Both the position numbers and the translations under genes were made by a program. A stretch of DNA of 64,000 nt from positions 13,033 through 77,032 of the IMG/VR virus record IMGVR_UViG_3300046804_003463; one strand, given 5' to 3'. This stretch comes from a virus. The notes under the pieces were generated by a model that was not told where the DNA came from, ran no database searches, and saw only the letters and a program-made list of their open reading frames with translations. This document shows, piece after piece, positions 4,064 to 12,247 of this stretch; position 1 is the stretch's first letter; every line of letters begins with the position of its first letter.

Positions 4064-4498
4064 TTAATTACACCAAGATTGTTTTGCCTCACCAAAATAT
4101 TCACGTGCAAGGCCATTTTGAATTAACATTGAACGAAGACTTTGACCGTCTAGAACGATGTCTCCCAATACACGACCACCAAATTTATCCCAGTCATAGA
4201 GTATCACTTGACGCTTAGATGATTTAGCAACTGCATTGGTTGTAAATTTTGTTGCCAATTTTCCTCTTTCATCCTCCTGTGGACATTTAGCACGAAAGCC
4301 TTTTTCTGGTGTATCTACACCATAAATGCGAACAGCAAGTTCAGGCTTCAGTGGTGCAGGTAAAAATGGCGCTGCAATCACTACAGTGTCACCGTCATTT
4401 ACACGGACAATTTGTGCATCATACATCACGCCTTGTGGTGCTTTTTGTGCCAATGCCAGTGACGGCAATAGCATAATCATTAACAGCAATTTTTTCAT
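4064..4498 (-). CDS. Secreted thermonuclease (staphylococcal nuclease-like)
   Basis: Signal peptide; DGDT, RIYGVDTPE and DKFGGRVL motifs. Confidence 0.88.
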   Translation of the reverse strand: MKKLLLMIMLLPSLALAQKAPQGVMYDAQIVRVNDGDTVVIAAPFLPAPLKPELAVRIYGVDTPEKGFRAKCPQEDERGKLATKFTTNAVAKSSKRQVILYDWDKFGGRVLGDIVLDGQSLRSMLIQNGLAREYFGEAKQSWCN

Positions 4499-4968
4499 AT
4501 TGATTCCTTACAAACGAGATTGAGAATATCAAAGCGTGTGGTGTGCGGCACATTCAAACTAACGATGTTTGAATTGACTTCATATGAGTTGCGAAAAACT
4601 ACTTTATTATTTGCATCAACATACAAATCCATAAGCATCATGAGTTGTTTTCTACCACAGTGCAATGAACCAAATACATACAATGCACTCACAGGAACAT
4701 CTACGCCATAAAATTCTTGTGGAACATGATATGGCACATATGCGTGAAAACTAACAATTTCTTGTTTAGCGCCGACTGTGCTTTTCTCAATGTATATATC
4801 ATAACCATCGGACTGAGTTACAAAATGCCAGTCGTTTTGATTGTGGATGATTTTATCATCGTTTGTGAAGTTAAGCCGGTATTCCGACTCTTCTGCATTT
4901 ACCGAAAAGGCTAAAAGTGCTGCAATGACAAAAGAAAATAGGTGCTTCATGGGATCCCCCCGAAACAC
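4495..4968 (-). CDS. Secreted/periplasmic hypothetical protein (probable start MKHLF at 4950)
   Basis: Signal peptide ending in VNA-E. Confidence 0.65.
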   Translation of the reverse strand: MFRGDPMKHLFSFVIAALLAFSVNAEESEYRLNFTNDDKIIHNQNDWHFVTQSDGYDIYIEKSTVGAKQEIVSFHAYVPYHVPQEFYGVDVPVSALYVFGSLHCGRKQLMMLMDLYVDANNKVVFRNSYEVNSNIVSLNVPHTTRFDILNLVCKESI

Positions 4969-4984
4969 CTATTTAGAACACAAA

Positions 4985-5695
4985 TCAACTCCAGTATTTA
5001 CTGTTGTCCAATTTATCCCAATACTTTTGATTATTACGATTTATGAAGTTTTTGATCAAATACCAACCCATACCAAAGTACCCCATTTTCTTGAATCTAC
5101 GGGAATCTTGACCAAAATAATGATTTAGTATTTTAAACTTTTTAGGTTCATACATTCTTGAAAGGAAATAATCTTCAGATGTAGAAAACCTTTCATTGAA
5201 GCCCCCAAACGCATCAAACTTACTCTTACGGGTTAGCATGAAGGCACCCACAGCAAACGGAGAAAAATGTTTCAAAATTTGATTGATTTTATTGAAAATA
5301 AAAAACCCAAGTTCCGCTTTCCAATCATCTTCGTAACATCTAATATTTGCTCCAATCAAATCTAAATCGTTCTGTTCAATCTCAAAAACAGCATCACGAA
5401 TCATATAATTATCAAAAAATATCACATCAGCATCTATGAACAAAATATATGGTGTGGTGACTAATTTTGCGGCATTGTTTCGTGCCACAGCAACAGGACC
5501 ACCATCAATGATTTCAATATTCAGAAAAGCACGATTGTTTCTAATTACATCTCTGGTGTTGTCAGTTGAACAGTCAGCAATAATAATTCTAGTGTCACCT
5601 ATCTTCTGTTGACGTAAAGAATTAAGCAAATGATTTATGTAATTTTCTTCATTTTTGCTTGGAATAACAATTGTGATTTTATCGCTTAGTTTCAT
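4985..5695 (-). CDS. Glycosyltransferase family 2
   Basis: IVIPSKNEE, DCSTD, DAD (DxD) and ED motifs. Confidence 0.9.
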   Translation of the reverse strand: MKLSDKITIVIPSKNEENYINHLLNSLRQQKIGDTRIIIADCSTDNTRDVIRNNRAFLNIEIIDGGPVAVARNNAAKLVTTPYILFIDADVIFFDNYMIRDAVFEIEQNDLDLIGANIRCYEDDWKAELGFFIFNKINQILKHFSPFAVGAFMLTRKSKFDAFGGFNERFSTSEDYFLSRMYEPKKFKILNHYFGQDSRRFKKMGYFGMGWYLIKNFINRNNQKYWDKLDNSKYWS

Positions 5696-5864
5696 CTTTC
5701 CTCACGCACTTTCCCTCAATCTTAAAATTGTCAAACTTTAACCAATACGTCATAGACTGTAAAGTTTGTTCACATTGTTGTTGTGTATCAAATTGTAGAT
5801 TTATTCTTCCCGGTATGTCGTTTGAATTGTTCAGATGTACCGCTATCAATATCATCAACCACAT
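5679..5864 (-). CDS. Small hypothetical protein
   Basis: 61-aa ORF with hydrophobic N-terminus and two Cys. Confidence 0.5.
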   Translation of the reverse strand: MWLMILIAVHLNNSNDIPGRINLQFDTQQQCEQTLQSMTYWLKFDNFKIEGKCVRKDETKR

Positions 5865-6615
5865 TATCGCTCTCCTGTGTCCATGTGATTATTTCCCATC
5901 TACCATCATGGTGTTCAACAAGTGCTGTCATTGATTCTACCCAGTCACCGTCATTCATATACATTACACCATCAATTTTTTTTATTTCTGCTTGATGTAT
6001 ATGACCACAAATCACACCGTCAAATCCTTTTTTCTTACAATATGCCGCTAAATTACTTTCAAATTGAAATATGAAATCAACTGCTTTTTTTACCTTGCGC
6101 TTAAGGAAACGACTAAGACTAAAATAACCAACACCCATTCTATGGAGGATCCAATTGAATTTACTATTGAAAGATAAAATGGTGTCATACGCTTTGTCTC
6201 CTAGTATTGCTAGCCACGGAGCAAGTCTAGTAATACCGTCAAAAAAGTCTCCGTGAATAACAAGATAGTGTTTACCATCAGCACCAATGTGTTCTATTTG
6301 ATTATGCATTTCAATCATACCAAAATTTAAATTATATTGTAAATATGGTCTAAGAAATTCATCATGATTACCTAACACATATACCACTCTTGTATTTCTT
6401 TTTGCGTGTCCTAATATACGTCTTACCACATTTGTGTGACTTTGTTTCCAGCGCCATTTATTTTGTTTTATTTTCCAAGCATCAATTATATCACCAACAA
6501 GATAAAGTGTTTCACACGAATTATTTTTGAGAAAATTGTTTAGTGCTTCAGCCTTACAATCTTTCGTTCCAAGGTGAACGTCTGAAATGAAAATACTACG
6601 ATATTTTTTGTCCAT
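5788..6615 (-). CDS. plcP: LpxH2/PlcP-type metallophosphoesterase (putative phospholipase C)
   Basis: SDVHLG, GDIID, GNHD, HGD and CGHIH motifs plus YMNDGDWVESMTALVEH, matching the PlcP/LpxH2 subfamily; lies in the pstS run. Confidence 0.78.
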   Translation of the reverse strand: MDKKYRSIFISDVHLGTKDCKAEALNNFLKNNSCETLYLVGDIIDAWKIKQNKWRWKQSHTNVVRRILGHAKRNTRVVYVLGNHDEFLRPYLQYNLNFGMIEMHNQIEHIGADGKHYLVIHGDFFDGITRLAPWLAILGDKAYDTILSFNSKFNWILHRMGVGYFSLSRFLKRKVKKAVDFIFQFESNLAAYCKKKGFDGVICGHIHQAEIKKIDGVMYMNDGDWVESMTALVEHHDGRWEIITWTQESDNVVDDIDSGTSEQFKRHTGKNKSTI

Positions 6616-6676
6616 TGAAATACTGGTTACGGGTCCAGTGTCACCTGATAGTTGTGACCGATTTTTTTATTTTGTT

Positions 6677-8083
6677 TTAGAAGTTCAACTGGCTTCTGAA
6701 CATGACTGCTTGATCACCTTTTACACGACTGCCCGATGCACCAACTAATTGATCAAACTTTGTATCAACATAATTTACCATAAAACGTAGATTGTCGGTA
6801 GCAAACCATGTGATGCCATATGTCATAGCAGTAGCACGATTTGATTTGCCAGCCGCTACTACGATAGGACTTGCATCAAACTCACTCATACGTACACCAA
6901 CTTGCCATGCACCACGGCCACCTTTGTCTAAAGAATTGTTAGGTTTAATTGCACCAAACACACCGTCTTTATAATTGTATGATTCACCAGTAATATTATA
7001 AGTTGCTAAAACATAATACCCTTTAATTTCTTGATTTACACCAACAGCAGGATCATAAACGAATTCAAATTGTTCACCTTGTATTTTAAAGGCATTATAT
7101 GCTATTGCTGCTTCAAGACCTTGGCGTGTTCTAGTTGTCAAACCACTTAGAGCAGGGCCGGTAAACCAAGCATTTTGAGACCTTGATTCTGTTCTTGCAC
7201 TTGATGGTGTAACTCCACCTTTAATTTCACCTGTACTATATGCAGCACCCAAATGTGCGACATATGCTTTGCTGCCAGTGAGTTCAGCAATGTTTGTGGT
7301 TACACGACCAATGTAATCAAGACTATCTGCTACGACATCTTTGTTACCACGACCACGACTGACTGCGGCTGCATAGGTCAATCCTGTTGTCGGCACACCA
7401 TGAATCATAAAGCCTGTTTCTTTTGCAGGAATAAATTCACCTTCAACTTGACCAATCAGACTACGTTCCATCATATCAATATTGTTGGAACTTTGTAGTT
7501 GCTCTAAACTAAATGGCATTTTGAACAAACCAAACTGAAATTGCATTTCAGGATTGGCTGCATAGTTTACCCATCCTACATCTAAATTTGTTGTTGATGA
7601 TGCTGCGCCAACATCATTACCAAAATTACCCACAAATTCATATTTGAAGTCTTTAGCAAACTGTCCACGAACACCAAATCTAGCACGACGAACTTCTGCT
7701 AAGTTTTGATACGAATCCGTGGTTTGACCGACAGCATAATTCGGTGAGTAGTGTCGATAGTCCATATGTAATCGACCTGTAAATTGTGCTGTGTTGTTTC
7801 CATCTTTGCTTTTGAGTCCAATTCCATTTTCGGTGACTGAACCATCATTTGCTCTGGCTTGTCTCCACTTGTTGTTGTCGCTAACATCTTTGTCAATTCT
7901 TTGCTCGGCAAATTTTTTGTTTTCTTCTCTTTCTTCATATGCTTTGAGTTTTGTTTCATATTCTTGTTGAGTGATTACATTCTTCTCTCTTAGAATGTTC
8001 AATGTTTCTTTATACTCATCAGCATATGCAGGAATTGCCGCTGCTAGTGCAATTACGATAGAAAGTTTTTTAAATAGTTTCAT
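6677..8083 (-). CDS. Phosphate-selective outer-membrane porin (OprO/OprP family)
   Basis: Signal peptide, RRARFG, GLFKMPFSLEQL, C-terminal Phe; adjacent to pstS. Confidence 0.88.
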   Translation of the reverse strand: MKLFKKLSIVIALAAAIPAYADEYKETLNILREKNVITQQEYETKLKAYEEREENKKFAEQRIDKDVSDNNKWRQARANDGSVTENGIGLKSKDGNNTAQFTGRLHMDYRHYSPNYAVGQTTDSYQNLAEVRRARFGVRGQFAKDFKYEFVGNFGNDVGAASSTTNLDVGWVNYAANPEMQFQFGLFKMPFSLEQLQSSNNIDMMERSLIGQVEGEFIPAKETGFMIHGVPTTGLTYAAAVSRGRGNKDVVADSLDYIGRVTTNIAELTGSKAYVAHLGAAYSTGEIKGGVTPSSARTESRSQNAWFTGPALSGLTTRTRQGLEAAIAYNAFKIQGEQFEFVYDPAVGVNQEIKGYYVLATYNITGESYNYKDGVFGAIKPNNSLDKGGRGAWQVGVRMSEFDASPIVVAAGKSNRATAMTYGITWFATDNLRFMVNYVDTKFDQLVGASGSRVKGDQAVMFRSQLNF

Positions 8084-8092
8084 GATTTATCC

Positions 8093-9115
8093 TTATTTCC
8101 AAATTGAGTTACCGTCAGGACCTTTTAGATCCTTGCGCCAGTTGTCTTGTACAAGTTTAACCACATCGGCAGGCATATGAACATACTCTAATTCTTCACT
8201 CATTTTGCCACCGTTTTTGTAAGACCAGTCAAAGAACTTGAGAACTGCACGGCCTGTCAATGCATCTGCTTGTTGCTTGTGCATCAAAATAAAACTTGCG
8301 CCTGTTGCTGGCCATGCATCTTTACCTGTTTGCCATGTCAGCAATAGATACATGCCTGGTGCATTTGCCCAATCTGCATTTGCTGCCGCTGTTTTGAATG
8401 TAGAATCATCAGGTAATACAAAGTTACCATCACGATTCTTTAGTGACGCATAAGGAATCTTATTGCGTTTTGCATATGCATATTCAACATAACCAAATGC
8501 ACCTTTCAGTCTTTGTACTTGTGCTGCTACACCCTCATTACCTTTACCACCTACACCTGTTGGCCATTTTACTGCTGTGCCTTCACCGACTACTTTTGCA
8601 AATTCAGGATTTGCTTTACCAAGAAAGTTTGTCCAGATGAATGTGGTGCCTGAACCATCTGCACGATGAATAACTGTGATTGGTATTGCAGGTAGATTTA
8701 TACCAGGATTCAAATCGGTGATTGCTTTGTCATTCCACTTTGTAATTTTACCAAGATGAATGTTTGCGACTACATCTGGTGTCAGTTTCAGTTTGCCTGA
8801 CTCAATGCCATCAAGGTTGAATACTGGTACTACACCACCGATGATTGCTGGAAACTGCATTAGACCTTCTTTGTCTAATTCCTCTTTCTTCAATGGCATA
8901 TCAGATGCGCCAAAATCAACTGTCTTGGCTTTGATTTGACGAATGCCACCACCCGAACCGATTGATTGATAGTTTAGACCAATGCCAGTTTGTGCTTTAT
9001 ATGCTTCAGCCCACTTTGCATAGATTGGAAATGGAAAAGTCGCACCGGCTCCAGTAAATTCTGCTGCTGATGCGACTCCTGTGAATAGCAATAATGATAG
9101 TAAAAACTTCTTCAT
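8093..9115 (-). CDS. pstS: Phosphate ABC transporter periplasmic binding protein
   Basis: GAGATFP, GSGGG, DFGASD, RADGSGTT and GKGNEGV motifs. Confidence 0.96.
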   Translation of the reverse strand: MKKFLLSLLLFTGVASAAEFTGAGATFPFPIYAKWAEAYKAQTGIGLNYQSIGSGGGIRQIKAKTVDFGASDMPLKKEELDKEGLMQFPAIIGGVVPVFNLDGIESGKLKLTPDVVANIHLGKITKWNDKAITDLNPGINLPAIPITVIHRADGSGTTFIWTNFLGKANPEFAKVVGEGTAVKWPTGVGGKGNEGVAAQVQRLKGAFGYVEYAYAKRNKIPYASLKNRDGNFVLPDDSTFKTAAANADWANAPGMYLLLTWQTGKDAWPATGASFILMHKQQADALTGRAVLKFFDWSYKNGGKMSEELEYVHMPADVVKLVQDNWRKDLKGPDGNSIWK

Positions 9116-9152: not shown

Positions 9153-9171
9153 TGTAACGGATCCGTCACAA
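9153..9171 (-). promoter_or_regulatory. Pho-box-like, near-palindromic element upstream of pstS
   Basis: TTGTGAC-GGAT-CCGTTAC: two GTnAC half-sites 11 bp apart. Confidence 0.4.
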
Positions 9172-9228: not shown

Positions 9229-10221
9229 TTACGCTGCTTTACCCCAAACAGTTTCCCAATTGCCTGTCAATGCACCTTTTGAATAATCTGTTGCACGATT
9301 CTCAAAAAAGTTTGTGTGTGTTGGTGCATTGATCATCTCTTCAACCCATGGAAGCGGATTCTTTTTAACCTTGAATACACCCTTGAGACCCAGACTAATG
9401 AGGCGACGATCAGCAATGTAGCGTATGTAAAGTTTAACGTCATCAGCAGATAGACCAGACATGTCACCCATATTAAAAGCAAGATCAATAAACTTATCTT
9501 CAAGTTCAACCATTTTTTCAGCAATAGTATAAATTTTTGATTTAAGGTCGTCATTCCATATCTGCTTATTTTCTTCAATATAGGTTCGGAATAATTTAAT
9601 CATAGACTCAGCGTGTTGTGTTTCATCCACGATTGACCAAGTAATAATCTGACCCATGCCTCTCATTTTACCTTGGCGTGGGAAGTTAAGTAGCATGATA
9701 AAGGAACTGAATAGTTGCATCCCTTCGGTGAAAGCAGAGAATACTGCAATATGAGCAGCAGTAGAAGCCCTATCGCCATTCTGTGTGCTAATACCAAGAA
9801 TATAATCGTGTTTTGAACGCATTTCGTCATATTCCATAAACTCCGTGTATGTGGTGTCTGGCATACCAAGTGTTTCAATTAGATGTGAGTATGCTGCGAT
9901 GTGTAATGCTTCACGTGCTGCAAAACCTAACAGCATCATTCTTACTTCAGGTTGAGGGAAATAAGGTAGGTAATTATTAACATAGCCACCCGCAACATCA
10001 ATGTCACCCTGAGTAAAAAATCTGAATATATGAGTAAGAAAATTCTTTTCGTCTTTCGTAAGTTTATTCTTCCAATCCTTAACATCTTCAAGCATTGGAA
10101 CTTCCGTGTGAAGCCAGTGACTCTGTTCATGTTTGAGCCAACTTTCGTATGCCCAAGGATATGCAAATGGTTTGAATGATGTTCTTTCGTCTGTTAGTTT
10201 TGTATCTTGCTTTTTAATCAT
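9229..10221 (-). CDS. nrdB: Ribonucleotide reductase class Ia beta subunit
   Basis: EALH and DETQH di-iron motifs; NFFENRATDY tail. Confidence 0.96.
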   Translation of the reverse strand: MIKKQDTKLTDERTSFKPFAYPWAYESWLKHEQSHWLHTEVPMLEDVKDWKNKLTKDEKNFLTHIFRFFTQGDIDVAGGYVNNYLPYFPQPEVRMMLLGFAAREALHIAAYSHLIETLGMPDTTYTEFMEYDEMRSKHDYILGISTQNGDRASTAAHIAVFSAFTEGMQLFSSFIMLLNFPRQGKMRGMGQIITWSIVDETQHAESMIKLFRTYIEENKQIWNDDLKSKIYTIAEKMVELEDKFIDLAFNMGDMSGLSADDVKLYIRYIADRRLISLGLKGVFKVKKNPLPWVEEMINAPTHTNFFENRATDYSKGALTGNWETVWGKAA

Positions 10222-11605: not shown

Positions 11606-12247
11606 TTACTTCTCCAATAATCTATTCACAAACTCTCTCAAAAGTTTATGATGTCTCCCTTGATGCCAATGTTTATGTAGATATGGTTTACTGTACCAAT
11701 ACTCTTCTGCTTCTAAGTGTGGACCAATTAGTCCTATTTTGTTTTGTATGACTGCTGCTGGATCACCGTTGCTGTATCTGGCAATTGTTTCGAACTTTGA
11801 TTCATCTCCGATAAATGCAGGTCCATCGTAAAAGAAGAACCTGTCTGTATTGCCTTGCCAGTCACATTCAACTGCTTTGGAATAATATCGTTTAGTACAG
11901 GTATTTGGTCGTCGTATGTATTGTTTGGCTTCAATGCCATCCACAATGTCCAAAAAATTGTGGTCAGCCCAATAAGCACCCATGCAAATACCGAGAAATC
12001 TACCACCATTCTTAATGTATTGTCTGACACCAGATTCATGATATTTAAACATATGGTCATAGGTGTCAGCATCGCCAATGCCACCAGGAAAGCAAACAAT
12101 ATCCACATCGTTAAAGTAGTCGTCTTCAATTTCATGTTTGGTAAAAAGTTTGTAGTTATAGTTAGCACCTAGTGCTTTGATTACACCATTACATGATTGT
12201 ACAGAACACCTTGGGTGCTGTACAAAAAGAGCAATTGTACAACTCAT
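11606..12247 (-). CDS. Class I glutamine amidotransferase-like (BPL_N-type) protein
   Basis: FPGG, FLGICMGAY (nucleophile Cys) and GPHLE motifs. Confidence 0.8.
   Translation of the reverse strand: MSCTIALFVQHPRCSVQSCNGVIKALGANYNYKLFTKHEIEDDYFNDVDIVCFPGGIGDADTYDHMFKYHESGVRQYIKNGGRFLGICMGAYWADHNFLDIVDGIEAKQYIRRPNTCTKRYYSKAVECDWQGNTDRFFFYDGPAFIGDESKFETIARYSNGDPAAVIQNKIGLIGPHLEAEEYWYSKPYLHKHWHQGRHHKLLREFVNRLLEK

What the first reader, a model, noticed from the sequence alone, without database searches (positions are those of the whole stretch)
4985..6615. Viral membrane-lipid remodelling pair (PlcP-like phospholipase C plus glycosyltransferase)
Seen: a metallophosphoesterase with the PlcP/LpxH2 signatures, followed by a GT2. 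Established: PlcP (S. meliloti SMc00171, marine heterotrophs) cleaves phospholipid head groups to diacylglycerol, which glycosyltransferases convert to P-free glycolipids. The characterised partner, Agt, is GT4, so a GT2 here is a departure. Inference: the phage frees P from host membranes and back-fills them with glycolipid.
Basis: partly seen in the sequence, partly recalled or inferred. Interest (0 to 1): 0.8.

Follow-up and report, generated by a model that had tools for sequence, protein, structure and literature searches.

The report
Phage PlcP phospholipase plus GT2 cassette
An uncultured T4-like aquatic phage carries a true relative of the bacterial enzyme PlcP, which cuts phosphate head groups off membrane lipids, coupled to a small virus-type sugar-transferase and placed behind phage phosphate-uptake genes, so it probably mines host membrane phosphorus and refills the membrane with glycolipid; no activity has been measured.

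Summary
Window 4985-6615 holds two minus-strand genes: a 275-aa metallophosphoesterase (5788-6615), then a 236-aa GT2 (4985-5695).

The phosphoesterase is a PlcP orthologue, not LpxH.
- It is 54% identical to the P. aeruginosa PA3219 orthologue and 46% to the S. meliloti SMc00171 orthologue.
- It scores 46 bits on NCBI's LpxH model, whose cut-off is 134.
- It falls on the PlcP side of a 100%-supported split from 30 true LpxH.

The GT2 belongs to a mostly viral family.
- 67 of 71 GT2-anchored viral loci have the PlcP gene beside it.
- In sister phages an Agt-like GT4, the classical partner, fills the same slot (42 GT2, 33 GT4 of 80 loci). The partner switches at least 8 times on the PlcP tree.

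The pair lies downstream of phage pstS and a phosphate-selective porin, behind a Pho-box-like site, with no terminator predicted between them. Enzyme activities, the GT2 acceptor and PhoB control are inferred.

Two extras: a conserved 56-61-aa gene between the two enzymes, and a covarying two-hairpin RNA motif with no Rfam match just before the PlcP start codon.

Earlier notes of this scan report the module on other DNA (at least 85 genomes). I found no paper describing it.

The parts
9154..9170 (-). Pho-box-like site (7-4-7 direct half-sites TGTGAC / CGTTAC) about 38 nt upstream of the pstS start codon; candidate PhoB-dependent promoter of the whole run
   Evidence: The sequence was read. Both half-sites are conserved while the spacer varies in sister loci. 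Other sister loci carry clearer TGTAAC-N5-TGTAAC or CTGTCAC-N4-CTGTCAC repeats at the same place, followed 10 nt later by a TAAATA-type -10 element. The loose pattern is not enriched in the window on its own, so support comes only from comparison.
8093..9115 (-). pstS, periplasmic phosphate-binding protein (340 aa); context gene
   Evidence: NCBIfam PstS NF008171 at 421.9 bits (cut-off 339). PHROG 5385, phosphate transporter subunit.
6677..8083 (-). Phosphate-selective porin O/P homologue (468 aa); starts 9 nt after pstS; context gene
   Evidence: Pfam Porin_O_P PF07396 at 150.8 bits. A pstS-porin pair lies directly upstream of the phosphoesterase in 19 of 63 sister loci that have room for it.
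6621..6668 (-). Conserved two-hairpin RNA motif filling the porin-PlcP spacer; ends 5 nt before the PlcP ATG, and no Shine-Dalgarno sequence is visible
   Evidence: Covariance model R1 gives 63.6 bits, E 5e-16, and a single copy in the 77-kb record. In 46 distinct sequences 96.9% of cells pair, against 24-38% when partners are slid, and all 5 pairs of helix 1 show double compensatory changes. No Rfam 15 family matched at E up to 10.
5788..6615 (-). PlcP-type metallophosphoesterase (275 aa): predicted Mn-dependent phospholipase C that releases diacylglycerol. The last ~25 residues are an unconstrained tail
   Evidence: 54% identity to the PA3219 orthologue and 46% to the SMc00171 orthologue. 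It lies in the PlcP clade, not the LpxH clade. All motifs are intact. The fold is LpxH-like with a helical lid, and the tail 251-275 has pLDDT below 50.
5679..5864 (-). Small conserved gene (61 aa; hydrophobic N-terminus, two conserved Cys). It overlaps the PlcP tail by 77 nt and the GT2 start by 17 nt; function unknown
   Evidence: Conserved at protein level in 73 viral loci, of both the GT2 and the GT4 type. Codon-position variability fits this frame (0.57, 0.33, 0.93) and not the PlcP frame (0.93, 0.57, 0.33) in the overlap. No Pfam match.
4985..5695 (-). GT2 glycosyltransferase (236 aa; GT-A fold, DxD, no membrane-spanning segment, basic and aromatic C-terminal helices): predicted diacylglycerol glycosyltransferase replacing Agt
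   Evidence: Pfam PF00535 at 76 bits. Invariant D88, D90, E174/D175 and an RRFKK-GY motif. Model pLDDT 95.5. PDB neighbours are generic GT2 enzymes. The C-terminal 45 aa hold 9 K/R and 12 F/W/Y, and there is no TM segment. Slot exchange with GT4 is shown.
4064..4968 (-). Downstream genes on the same strand with no predicted terminator before them: a 157-aa protein with a signal-peptide-like N-terminus (4495-4968) and a staphylococcal-nuclease homologue (4064-4498). Membership of the module is not shown
   Evidence: Pfam SNase at 40 bits and a weak Adhesin_E hit. No minus-strand terminator was found between 10400 and 3300. The two genes are syntenic in many sister loci whether or not pstS and the porin are present.

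Best explanation
This is a phage-borne membrane-lipid renovation cassette inside a phosphate-stress gene run.

Proposed mechanism:
1. The run pstS, phosphate porin, RNA motif, plcP, small ORF, GT2 is probably transcribed from a Pho-box-type promoter upstream of pstS when the infected Gram-negative host is phosphate-starved (inferred).
2. The PlcP orthologue, an LpxH-like Mn-dependent phosphoesterase with a lipid-binding lid, cuts phospho-head groups from host glycerophospholipids. This leaves diacylglycerol in the inner membrane. (Orthology is shown; activity is inferred.)
3. Host phosphatases would then turn the released phospho-alcohols into phosphate for phage nucleotide synthesis (inferred).
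4. The 236-aa GT2 is a peripheral-membrane, inverting GT-A enzyme of a mostly viral family. It takes the place of the classical retaining GT4 Agt and glycosylates the diacylglycerol. This removes a bilayer-disrupting lipid and keeps the membrane intact until lysis, probably giving a beta-linked glycolipid rather than Agt's product (inferred from slot exchange and enzyme class).
5. The small conserved protein and the RNA motif are parts of the cassette whose roles are unknown.
For: PlcP identity:
- 54% identity over 246 aa (E 7e-90) to the P. aeruginosa gene that sits between the azoR3 region and a GT1-family gene plus cyaB, which is the PA3219-PA3218-PA3217 layout.
- 46% over 263 aa (E 1e-82) to the S. 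meliloti gene beside the luxR-type regulator and AHL synthase genes, which I read as SMc00171.
- Blast scores are bimodal. PlcP-like proteins score 150-280 bits to the window protein and at most 50 to E. coli LpxH; true LpxH do the reverse.
- The LpxH-versus-PlcP split has 100% support in two trees, and both characterised orthologues fall on the window's side.
- 75 of 81 Gammaproteobacteria have a true LpxH at 150-333 bits. About 20 also have a second copy at 37-54 bits, like the window's 45.6. That second copy is followed by a GT4 in 6 of 12 loci examined.
- 145 of 401 Alphaproteobacteria have one homologue at 43-56% identity.
- All catalytic motifs are intact, and the nearest solved fold is LpxH.

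GT2 role:
- A glycosyltransferase follows the viral PlcP in 75 of 78 loci: 42 GT2 and 33 GT4.
- In the loci that carry the small ORF, both partner types start at the same offset after PlcP.
- The viral GT4 is 35-38% identical over its full length to the plcP-adjacent GT4 of bacteria, including the Agt1 orthologue.
- The partner type changes 15 times on the viral PlcP tree, at least 8 of them forced by strongly supported branches.
- 67 of 71 GT2-anchored loci have PlcP beside it.
- The GT2 has no TM segment but a basic, aromatic C-terminus.
- Its look-alike clusters are mostly viral, and the named bacterial ones act on lipids, such as the carotenoid glycosyltransferase CrtQ. Weak NCBIfam hits point the same way: CruG, HpnB.

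Phosphate context:
- pstS and a phosphate porin lie directly upstream with no terminator predicted in between.
- Pho-box-like repeats stand in front of pstS or plcP in sister loci.

Published function of the bacterial pathway: PMC4796936, PMC8528852, PMC13691135.
Against: - No activity has been measured for any viral copy.
- The GT2's acceptor is unknown. Its best structural neighbour by TM-score is a polyprenyl-phosphate mannosyltransferase (PcManGT), so a polyprenol-phosphate acceptor is not excluded.
- Four viral loci carry the GT2 without PlcP, so it can be kept without a phage PlcP.
- The Pho-box-like site in the window is a weak match and partly palindromic, and the loose pattern is not enriched over chance.
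- PlcP releases phospho-alcohols, not phosphate, and the cassette has no phosphatase.
- T4-like phages shuffle accessory genes in such regions, so adjacency alone is weaker evidence than in a bacterial operon.
- The host is unknown.
Confidence: 0.55

Rival explanations
1. PlcP is genuine, but the GT2 does not use diacylglycerol. It glycosylates another lipid or envelope acceptor, such as undecaprenyl phosphate, LPS, or a hopanoid or carotenoid. It would serve surface modification, for example blocking superinfection, and lies next to plcP only because accessory genes are shuffled as cassettes.
For: - The highest TM-score among PDB neighbours belongs to a polyprenyl-phosphate mannosyltransferase; the others are wall-teichoic-acid and polysaccharide GT2 enzymes.
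- PHROG hits are weak GtrB-like O-antigen conversion families.
- Four loci have the GT2 without PlcP.
- The pelagimyophage literature reads phage glycosyltransferases as O-antigen modifiers (PMC7029224).
Against: - 67 of 71 GT2 loci have PlcP beside it, often with overlapping stop and start codons.
- The slot is otherwise filled by an Agt orthologue, whose bacterial relatives make glycosyl-diacylglycerol (PMC8528852).
- The GT2 lacks the membrane-spanning helices of GtrB-type enzymes.
- PHROG scores are only 21-24 bits over the N-terminal nucleotide-binding part.
Confidence: 0.2
2. The PlcP-GT pair does remodel host lipids, but its benefit to the phage is not phosphorus supply. Replacing anionic phospholipids with glycolipids could change membrane properties, for example tolerance of envelope stress, exclusion of other phages, or timing of lysis.
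For: - In bacteria the PlcP-Agt glycolipids change polymyxin resistance (PMC8528852), grazing susceptibility (PMC9457565) and intracellular survival (PMC13691135).
- Only 31 of 80 viral PlcP loci have pstS within 6 kb, so the pair also occurs away from phosphate-uptake genes.
Against: - In the window the pair lies directly behind pstS and a phosphate porin, with no terminator predicted.
- Pho-box-like repeats precede plcP itself in sister loci that lack pstS upstream.
- The bacterial operon is a Pho-regulon member (PMC4796936, PMC8528852).
Confidence: 0.15
3. The database label is right: the enzyme is LpxH (UDP-2,3-diacylglucosamine diphosphatase), and together with the GT2 it boosts or alters lipid A and LPS synthesis.
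For: - JGI and GenBank annotate homologues, including Mosig EXVC030M, as LpxH.
- The nearest solved structures are LpxH.
- Virus surveys list lpxH among LPS auxiliary genes (PMC10653327, PMC9611531).
Against: - It scores 45.6 and 34 bits on the two NCBI LpxH equivalog models, whose cut-offs are 134 and 190.
- A 100%-supported branch separates it from 30 true LpxH.
- Genomes with a true LpxH carry this type as a second copy.
- In five genomes checked the only LpxH-model hits were these sub-threshold genes. In the sampled Alphaproteobacteria the homologue is usually single-copy.
- It is 46-54% identical to the characterised PlcPs.
Confidence: 0.04

Closest known systems
Bacterial PlcP-Agt lipid renovation operon (P. 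aeruginosa PA3219-PA3218; S. meliloti SMc00171; B. cenocepacia BCAL2364-2366; SAR11 HTCC7211; Phaeobacter MED193)
   Same: The window enzyme is an orthologue at 46-54% identity. A glycosyltransferase gene follows it directly. The setting is Pho-type. Sister phages carry the Agt orthologue itself, 37% identical to the Agt1 orthologue.
   Different: It is carried by a virus. In the window the partner is a 236-aa GT2 (GT-A, inverting) rather than the ~340-aa GT4 (GT-B, retaining). A conserved 56-61-aa gene and a structured RNA motif are added. There is no dagK. It is fused into a run with pstS and a porin.
LpxH (UDP-2,3-diacylglucosamine diphosphatase of lipid A synthesis)
   Same: Same metallophosphoesterase superfamily and the same overall fold with a helical lid. 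The top 25 PDB matches are LpxH, at E about 1e-11 and TM 0.5-0.6.
   Different: Only 16-22% identity. It falls far below the family cut-offs, lies in a separate clade, and is a different paralogue within the same genomes.
Pgt, the processive glycolipid glycosyltransferase found next to plcP in some bacteria (Mesorhizobium loti; cited in PMC4796936), and cyanobacterial MgdA (GT2; from my own knowledge)
   Same: These are GT-A-type enzymes that glycosylate diacylglycerol, so a non-GT4 partner for PlcP has a precedent. The window GT2 has a secondary Pfam Glyco_transf_21 hit of 30.4 bits.
   Different: The window protein is much shorter and has no membrane-spanning part. Its family profile finds no strong match in 251 Cyanobacteria, where MgdA is, from my own knowledge, near-universal, or in 401 Alphaproteobacteria. 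I could not fetch Pgt or MgdA sequences for a direct comparison.
Phage phosphate-stress auxiliary genes (pstS and others in cyanomyoviruses and pelagimyophages); Pelagibacter phage Mosig EXVC030M
   Same: A T4-like aquatic phage with pstS. Mosig carries a 49%-identical PlcP-type gene next to its pstS, annotated as an LpxH-type hydrolase.
   Different: Mosig shows no glycosyltransferase after the gene, no porin, no small-ORF homologue and no RNA motif. The papers I searched do not describe lipid renovation as a viral function.

Membership tests
PlcP (LpxH-like phospholipase C of lipid renovation) | Metallophosphoesterase with intact metal-binding motifs | tested here: met
   D12, H14, D42, N83, H84, H121, H205 and H207 are invariant in an alignment of 37 viral and cellular relatives. 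Pfam Metallophos scores 48.8 bits.
PlcP (LpxH-like phospholipase C of lipid renovation) | Closer in sequence to experimentally characterised PlcP than to LpxH | tested here: met
   54% identity (E 7e-90) to the PA3219 orthologue and 46% (E 1e-82) to the SMc00171 orthologue. At most 44 bits to any of 30 LpxH. The orthologues were identified by their neighbours: cyaB and azoR3, and luxR plus AHL synthase.
PlcP (LpxH-like phospholipase C of lipid renovation) | Falls in the PlcP clade in a tree that includes LpxH | tested here: met
   LpxH (30 rows) is split from all PlcP-like rows with 100% support, in an IQ-TREE quick search and in FastTree. Both characterised orthologues lie on the window's side. 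The careful IQ-TREE search did not finish.
PlcP (LpxH-like phospholipase C of lipid renovation) | Gene neighbourhood with a lipid glycosyltransferase or other non-phosphorus-lipid gene | tested here: met
   A glycosyltransferase follows directly in 75 of 78 viral loci. An Agt-type GT4 follows in the Acetobacteraceae loci examined and in 6 of 12 gammaproteobacterial second copies.
PlcP (LpxH-like phospholipase C of lipid renovation) | Pho-box (PhoB) control | tested here: inconclusive
   A 7-4-7 site upstream of pstS is conserved in sister loci, and clearer Pho-box-like repeats stand before plcP elsewhere. The loose pattern is not enriched in the window, and the host's Pho box is unknown.
PlcP (LpxH-like phospholipase C of lipid renovation) | Phospholipase C activity on PE, PG or PC yielding diacylglycerol | not testable with these tools
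   This needs an enzyme assay or lipidomics.
LpxH | Score above the curated equivalog cut-off and placement in the LpxH clade | tested here: not met
   NF003743 gives 45.6 bits against a cut-off of 134, and TIGR01854 gives 34 against 190. The protein lies outside the LpxH clade.
Agt (GT4 glycosyl-diacylglycerol synthase) | GT-B fold, Pfam Glycos_transf_1 and Glyco_transf_4 domains, about 330-350 aa | tested here: not met
   The window partner is a 236-aa GT-A protein with PF00535 only. Sister phages do carry the GT4.
GT2 (inverting GT-A glycosyltransferases) | PF00535 domain, DxD motif, GT-A fold | tested here: met
   76.1 bits. D88 and D90 are invariant. The model has pLDDT 95.5, and its PDB neighbours are TarS, TarP, K4CP and PcManGT at E about 1e-11.
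Diacylglycerol glycosyltransferase (by function) | Transfers a sugar to diacylglycerol | not testable with these tools
   There is only indirect support: slot exchange with Agt and features of peripheral membrane binding.

The most novel reading that the evidence does not exclude
Large aquatic phages carry a self-contained, host-PhoB-wired lipid-renovation cassette with three parts. One is a virus-specific GT2 that has repeatedly displaced Agt and makes a different, beta-linked glycolipid. The second is a dedicated small protein. The third is a new structured RNA motif that controls or stabilises the phosphate-stress transcripts. Genes filed as viral 'lpxH' in surveys would then really mark viral mining of membrane phosphorus.
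Probability: 0.3. Interest if true: 0.8.

Novelty: new variant of a known kind. Interest (0 to 1): 0.62.

Why it matters
Known phage phosphate genes such as pstS and phoA raise uptake. A viral PlcP cassette would add an internal source, the host's own membrane phospholipids. That bears on how phages finance phosphorus-rich DNA in phosphate-poor lakes and oceans.

The gene is common. At least 272 IMG/VR contigs carry a relative of the PlcP gene, and at least 547 carry a relative of the GT2. Its homologues are routinely labelled lpxH. If the lpxH entries that virus surveys list among LPS genes (PMC10653327, PMC9611531) are this gene, which I did not verify, they place a phosphorus-cycle gene under LPS synthesis.

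The repeated GT4-to-GT2 exchange is a natural experiment in non-orthologous replacement. It points to an uncharacterised, mostly viral family of small GT2 enzymes as candidate glycolipid synthases.

All of this is directly testable with two or three genes expressed in E. coli.

Tried and rejected
I therefore could not inspect the genomic context of database proteins, including the distant GT2 relatives.
- Genomes reached through the genome search carry no names, so class-level searches give distributions without taxa. Named anchors came only from oversized or mislabelled 'plasmid' records.
- The tallies each include one genome flagged unpublished (G243, G692). I removed L276, which comes from G692, from both trees. 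No other claim rests on them.
- LpxH as the identity of the enzyme: rejected.
- Structure search for the GT2 gave only generic GT2 neighbours and does not tell the acceptor.
- Cluster names for GT2 relatives were uninformative.
- A search for a cellular source of the GT2 family found only weak matches: at most 159 bits in 251 Cyanobacteria, at most 92 in 401 Alphaproteobacteria, and at most 139 in 400 Gammaproteobacteria apart from a mis-binned phage contig.
- A Pho-box pattern count in the window was no better than chance.
- Rfam found no family for the RNA motif in the window or in nine other loci. A resemblance of helix 2 to preQ1-I aptamers, recalled from memory, got no support from Rfam.
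- The small gene that overlaps the end of Mosig's PlcP-type gene is not similar to the window's small ORF.
- I did not try to assign a host.
- The careful IQ-TREE run did not finish in the time allowed, so one search is the quick search.
Full report
WHAT IS THERE

The window is part of a 77-kb IMG/VR virus record that is 45% complete by CheckV. It carries a T4-type DNA polymerase, a gp41-like helicase, a gp46-like nuclease, ribonucleotide reductase, ThyX, a SegE-type homing endonuclease and a virion protein. The only nucleotide match among deposited phages is Pelagibacter phage Mosig EXVC030M.

All genes around the finding lie on the minus strand. In reading order they are:
- RNR small subunit, 9229-10221
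- pstS, 8093-9115 (PstS model 422 bits)
- a phosphate-selective porin O/P homologue, 6677-8083 (151 bits)
- the metallophosphoesterase, 5788-6615
- the GT2, 4985-5695
- a 157-aa protein with a signal-peptide-like start
- a staphylococcal-nuclease homologue

IS THE PHOSPHOESTERASE PlcP OR LpxH?

It scores 45.6 and 34 bits on NCBI's two LpxH equivalog models, whose cut-offs are 134 and 190. Its matches to LpxH chains in the PDB are only marginal by sequence (E about 1e-3).

In 81 sampled Gammaproteobacteria, 75 have a true LpxH at 150-333 bits. About 20 also have a second copy at 37-54 bits. In five other genomes, including alphaproteobacterial ones, the only LpxH-model hits are such sub-threshold genes. 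The window protein finds one homologue at 43-56% identity in 145 of 401 sampled Alphaproteobacteria.

Blast scores are cleanly bimodal. PlcP-like proteins give 150-280 bits to the window protein and at most 50 to E. coli LpxH; true LpxH do the opposite.

A tree of 112 sequences puts the 30 LpxH on one side of a 100%-supported branch and all viral, alphaproteobacterial and second-copy gammaproteobacterial sequences on the other. This is the quick IQ-TREE search; the careful one did not finish.

Named anchors came from the plasmid collection, which holds some chromosomal DNA under plasmid labels.
- A P. aeruginosa record has the gene between the azoR3 region and a GT1-family gene followed by cyaB. 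That is the PA3219-PA3218-PA3217 layout.
- A 3.7-Mb S. meliloti record has the gene beside a LuxR-type regulator and an AHL synthase. From my own knowledge of the sinR/sinI locus I read this gene as SMc00171.

The window protein is 54% identical to the first (E 7e-90) and 46% identical to the second (E 1e-82). Both fall inside the PlcP-like side of the split. PA3219 and SMc00171 are the characterised PlcP enzymes (PMC8528852, PMC4796936).

All metal-binding residues are invariant. The AlphaFold model (pLDDT 79) has an LpxH-like core and a helical lid, and its top 25 PDB neighbours are all LpxH. This fits a lipid substrate. I therefore file the enzyme as a PlcP orthologue. Its activity is inferred.

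WHAT IS THE GT2?

It is a 236-aa GT-A protein with PF00535 at 76 bits, DxD at D88/D90, an invariant E174-D175 and a conserved RRFKK-GY motif. The model has pLDDT 95.5.

PDB neighbours are generic GT2 enzymes. By E-value the best are TarS, TarP and chondroitin polymerase; by TM-score the best is the polyprenyl-phosphate mannosyltransferase PcManGT. This does not identify the acceptor.

The protein has no membrane-spanning segment. Its last 45 residues hold 9 Lys/Arg and 12 aromatic residues, as expected for an interfacial membrane binder.

The family is compact (about 235-245 aa) and looks mostly viral.
- A search of all cluster representatives gives 68 clusters at E below 1e-30.
- The nearest ESM-Atlas clusters are mostly 100% viral. 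The bacterial look-alikes include a CrtQ-type carotenoid glycosyltransferase cluster.
- A family profile finds nothing strong in 401 Alphaproteobacteria, 251 Cyanobacteria or 400 Gammaproteobacteria, apart from a mis-binned phage contig.

WHY I READ IT AS THE PARTNER OF PlcP

In 80 viral loci fetched with the phosphoesterase (75-87% identity), the next gene is a GT2 in 42 and a ~331-aa GT4 in 33. Three have something else and two have no room. In the loci that carry the small ORF, the two partner types start at the same offset after PlcP.

The viral GT4 is 35-38% identical over its full length to the GT4 that follows plcP in an Acetobacteraceae genome, in a gammaproteobacterium, and in P. aeruginosa, where it is the Agt1 orthologue. 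Agt1 makes monoglucosyl-diacylglycerol from diacylglycerol (PMC8528852).

On a tree of 107 distinct viral PlcP sequences, the partner type changes 15 times by parsimony, and at least 8 changes are forced by strongly supported branches. The two glycosyltransferases have therefore replaced each other repeatedly in one slot.

From the GT2 side, 67 of 71 loci with room have PlcP adjacent, often abutting, or within about 1 kb. Two have the reverse order, and four have the GT2 alone next to the RNR gene.

This is the core argument that the GT2 does Agt's job. It is comparative evidence, not biochemical evidence. The class difference (GT4 retaining, GT2 inverting) predicts a different anomeric linkage. 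A rationale for needing any glycosyltransferase comes from the Burkholderia operon, where a diacylglycerol kinase is thought to prevent diacylglycerol build-up (PMC13691135).

PHOSPHATE CONTEXT AND CONTROL

pstS and the porin are 9 nt apart. The porin and plcP are 61 nt apart. No intrinsic terminator is predicted on the minus strand between 10400 and 3300.

Upstream of pstS lies a 7-4-7 site with half-sites TGTGAC and CGTTAC (9154-9170). In sister loci the half-sites are conserved while the spacer varies.

Other sister loci have TGTAAC-N5-TGTAAC, or in one case CTGTCAC-N4-CTGTCAC, followed 10 nt later by a TAAATA-type -10 element. These stand in front of pstS, or directly in front of plcP where pstS is absent. 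This is the layout of Pho-regulon promoters.

The loose pattern is not enriched in the window on its own, and the host's PhoB site is unknown. I therefore rate Pho control as plausible but unproven.

pstS lies within 6 kb of PlcP in 31 of 80 loci.

TWO ADDITIONS TO THE CASSETTE

(a) A small gene. A 61-aa ORF (5679-5864) has its own AGGAG upstream. It overlaps the last 77 nt of plcP and is conserved at protein level in 73 loci of both partner types, with two invariant Cys. In the overlap, variability by codon position fits the small ORF (0.57, 0.33, 0.93) and is inverted for the plcP frame. The PlcP tail is predicted disordered and is absent from cellular homologues. The small gene is therefore real, and its function is unknown.

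(b) An RNA motif. The 61-nt spacer before plcP is filled by a two-hairpin element (6621-6668).
- In 46 distinct sequences 96.9% of cells pair, against 24-38% for slid controls. Every pair of helix 1 shows compensatory double changes.
- A covariance model finds one copy in this record.
- It finds one copy, always on the coding strand, in 53 of 80 viral PlcP loci. It finds none in cellular plcP loci, Mosig or S-SRM01.
- A pattern scan of all viral contigs, filtered with the model, gave 20 strong hits. Of these, 17 directly abut pstS, the porin, plcP or the glycosyltransferase; the other three lie at locus ends.
- In many loci the motif lies after the last gene and is followed by a terminator hairpin.
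- A weaker variant lies between regA and hsp20 in other T4-like contigs, and once inside a tRNA array.
- Rfam 15 has no match.

I cannot say what the motif does. In the window it takes the place of a ribosome-binding site.

LITERATURE

The bacterial pathway is well described (PMC4796936, PMC8528852, PMC13691135). Sebastian et al. already note plcP next to glycosyltransferases other than Agt, including Pgt.

Full-text searches found no paper combining plcP with viral auxiliary genes. The pelagimyophage survey does not mention it. Virus surveys list 'lpxH' among LPS genes, but I could not verify that those entries are this gene.

Earlier notes of this scan report the same module in at least 85 other genomes, including one PlcP+GT2 case with the Agt swap. 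I used them as leads for the Pho box and the small protein, and tested those points here.

VERDICT

- PlcP identity is well supported (about 0.85).
- The GT2 as a diacylglycerol glycosyltransferase is plausible (about 0.55).
- A phosphorus-scavenging purpose is plausible (about 0.6).

This is a new variant of a known kind: the bacterial PlcP-glycosyltransferase pathway, carried by phages and fitted with a virus-type GT2, a small protein and an RNA motif.

Noticed in passing
window 6621-6668 (-); also L072:7898-7946, L112:5201-5249, L108:3576-3624, L340:1209-1256, L356:643-690: A conserved ~49-nt two-hairpin RNA motif with strong covariation and no Rfam match. It sits at the edges of phage pstS, porin, plcP and glycosyltransferase genes, either just before the plcP ATG or after the last gene and before a terminator. 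A weaker variant lies between regA and hsp20 in other T4-like contigs, and once directly before a tRNA inside a tRNA array. Its function is unknown.
   Followed up: partly
window 5679-5864 (-): An unannotated 61-aa gene between plcP and the GT2. It overlaps the plcP tail and is conserved in 73 viral loci with two invariant Cys. Codon-position variability shows that this frame, not the plcP tail, is under selection. It has no Pfam match.
   Followed up: partly
window 6677-8083 (-): A phage-encoded phosphate-selective porin O/P homologue (Pfam 151 bits) lies 9 nt after pstS. It has no PHROG family. A pstS-porin pair lies directly upstream of plcP in 19 of 63 sister loci.
   Followed up: partly
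window 4064-4968 (-): A 157-aa protein with a signal-peptide-like N-terminus and a staphylococcal-nuclease homologue follow the GT2 with no predicted terminator. A secreted nuclease could be a further phosphorus-scavenging step, but I did not test this.
   Followed up: no
L206, L217, L218, L219: Four viral loci carry the GT2 (66-69% identical) next to the RNR genes without any PlcP gene in the stretch held. The GT2 can therefore be kept on its own.
   Followed up: no
L003 (Polynucleobacter MAG, 6-kb contig) and L004 (Fischerella MAG, 11-kb contig): Short contigs binned into bacterial MAGs carry the viral-type PlcP (81% and 69% identity) with a GT2 or a GT4. L003 also has the RNA motif. In the tree they sit inside the viral clade, so they are probably mis-binned phage DNA.
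   Followed up: partly
L430 (NZ_CP042268.1) and L431 (CP090106.1): Two 'plasmid' records of PLSDB hold chromosomal DNA. One is a 167-kb P. aeruginosa record with the PA3217-PA3223 region. The other is a 3.7-Mb S. meliloti record labelled pSymB that carries the sinR/sinI region.
   Followed up: no
L162:5007-5711 (Synechococcus phage S-SRM01): A freshwater cyanophage has a distant PlcP-type gene (37% identity, very long branch) beside psbA and hli genes, with no glycosyltransferase after it. It is annotated as an LpxH-type enzyme.
   Followed up: no
window 11606-12247 (-): A 213-aa protein with a weak class-I glutamine-amidotransferase / BPL_N-like hit has ~50%-identical relatives directly flanking the plcP-GT module in many sister loci, in either orientation.
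   Followed up: no
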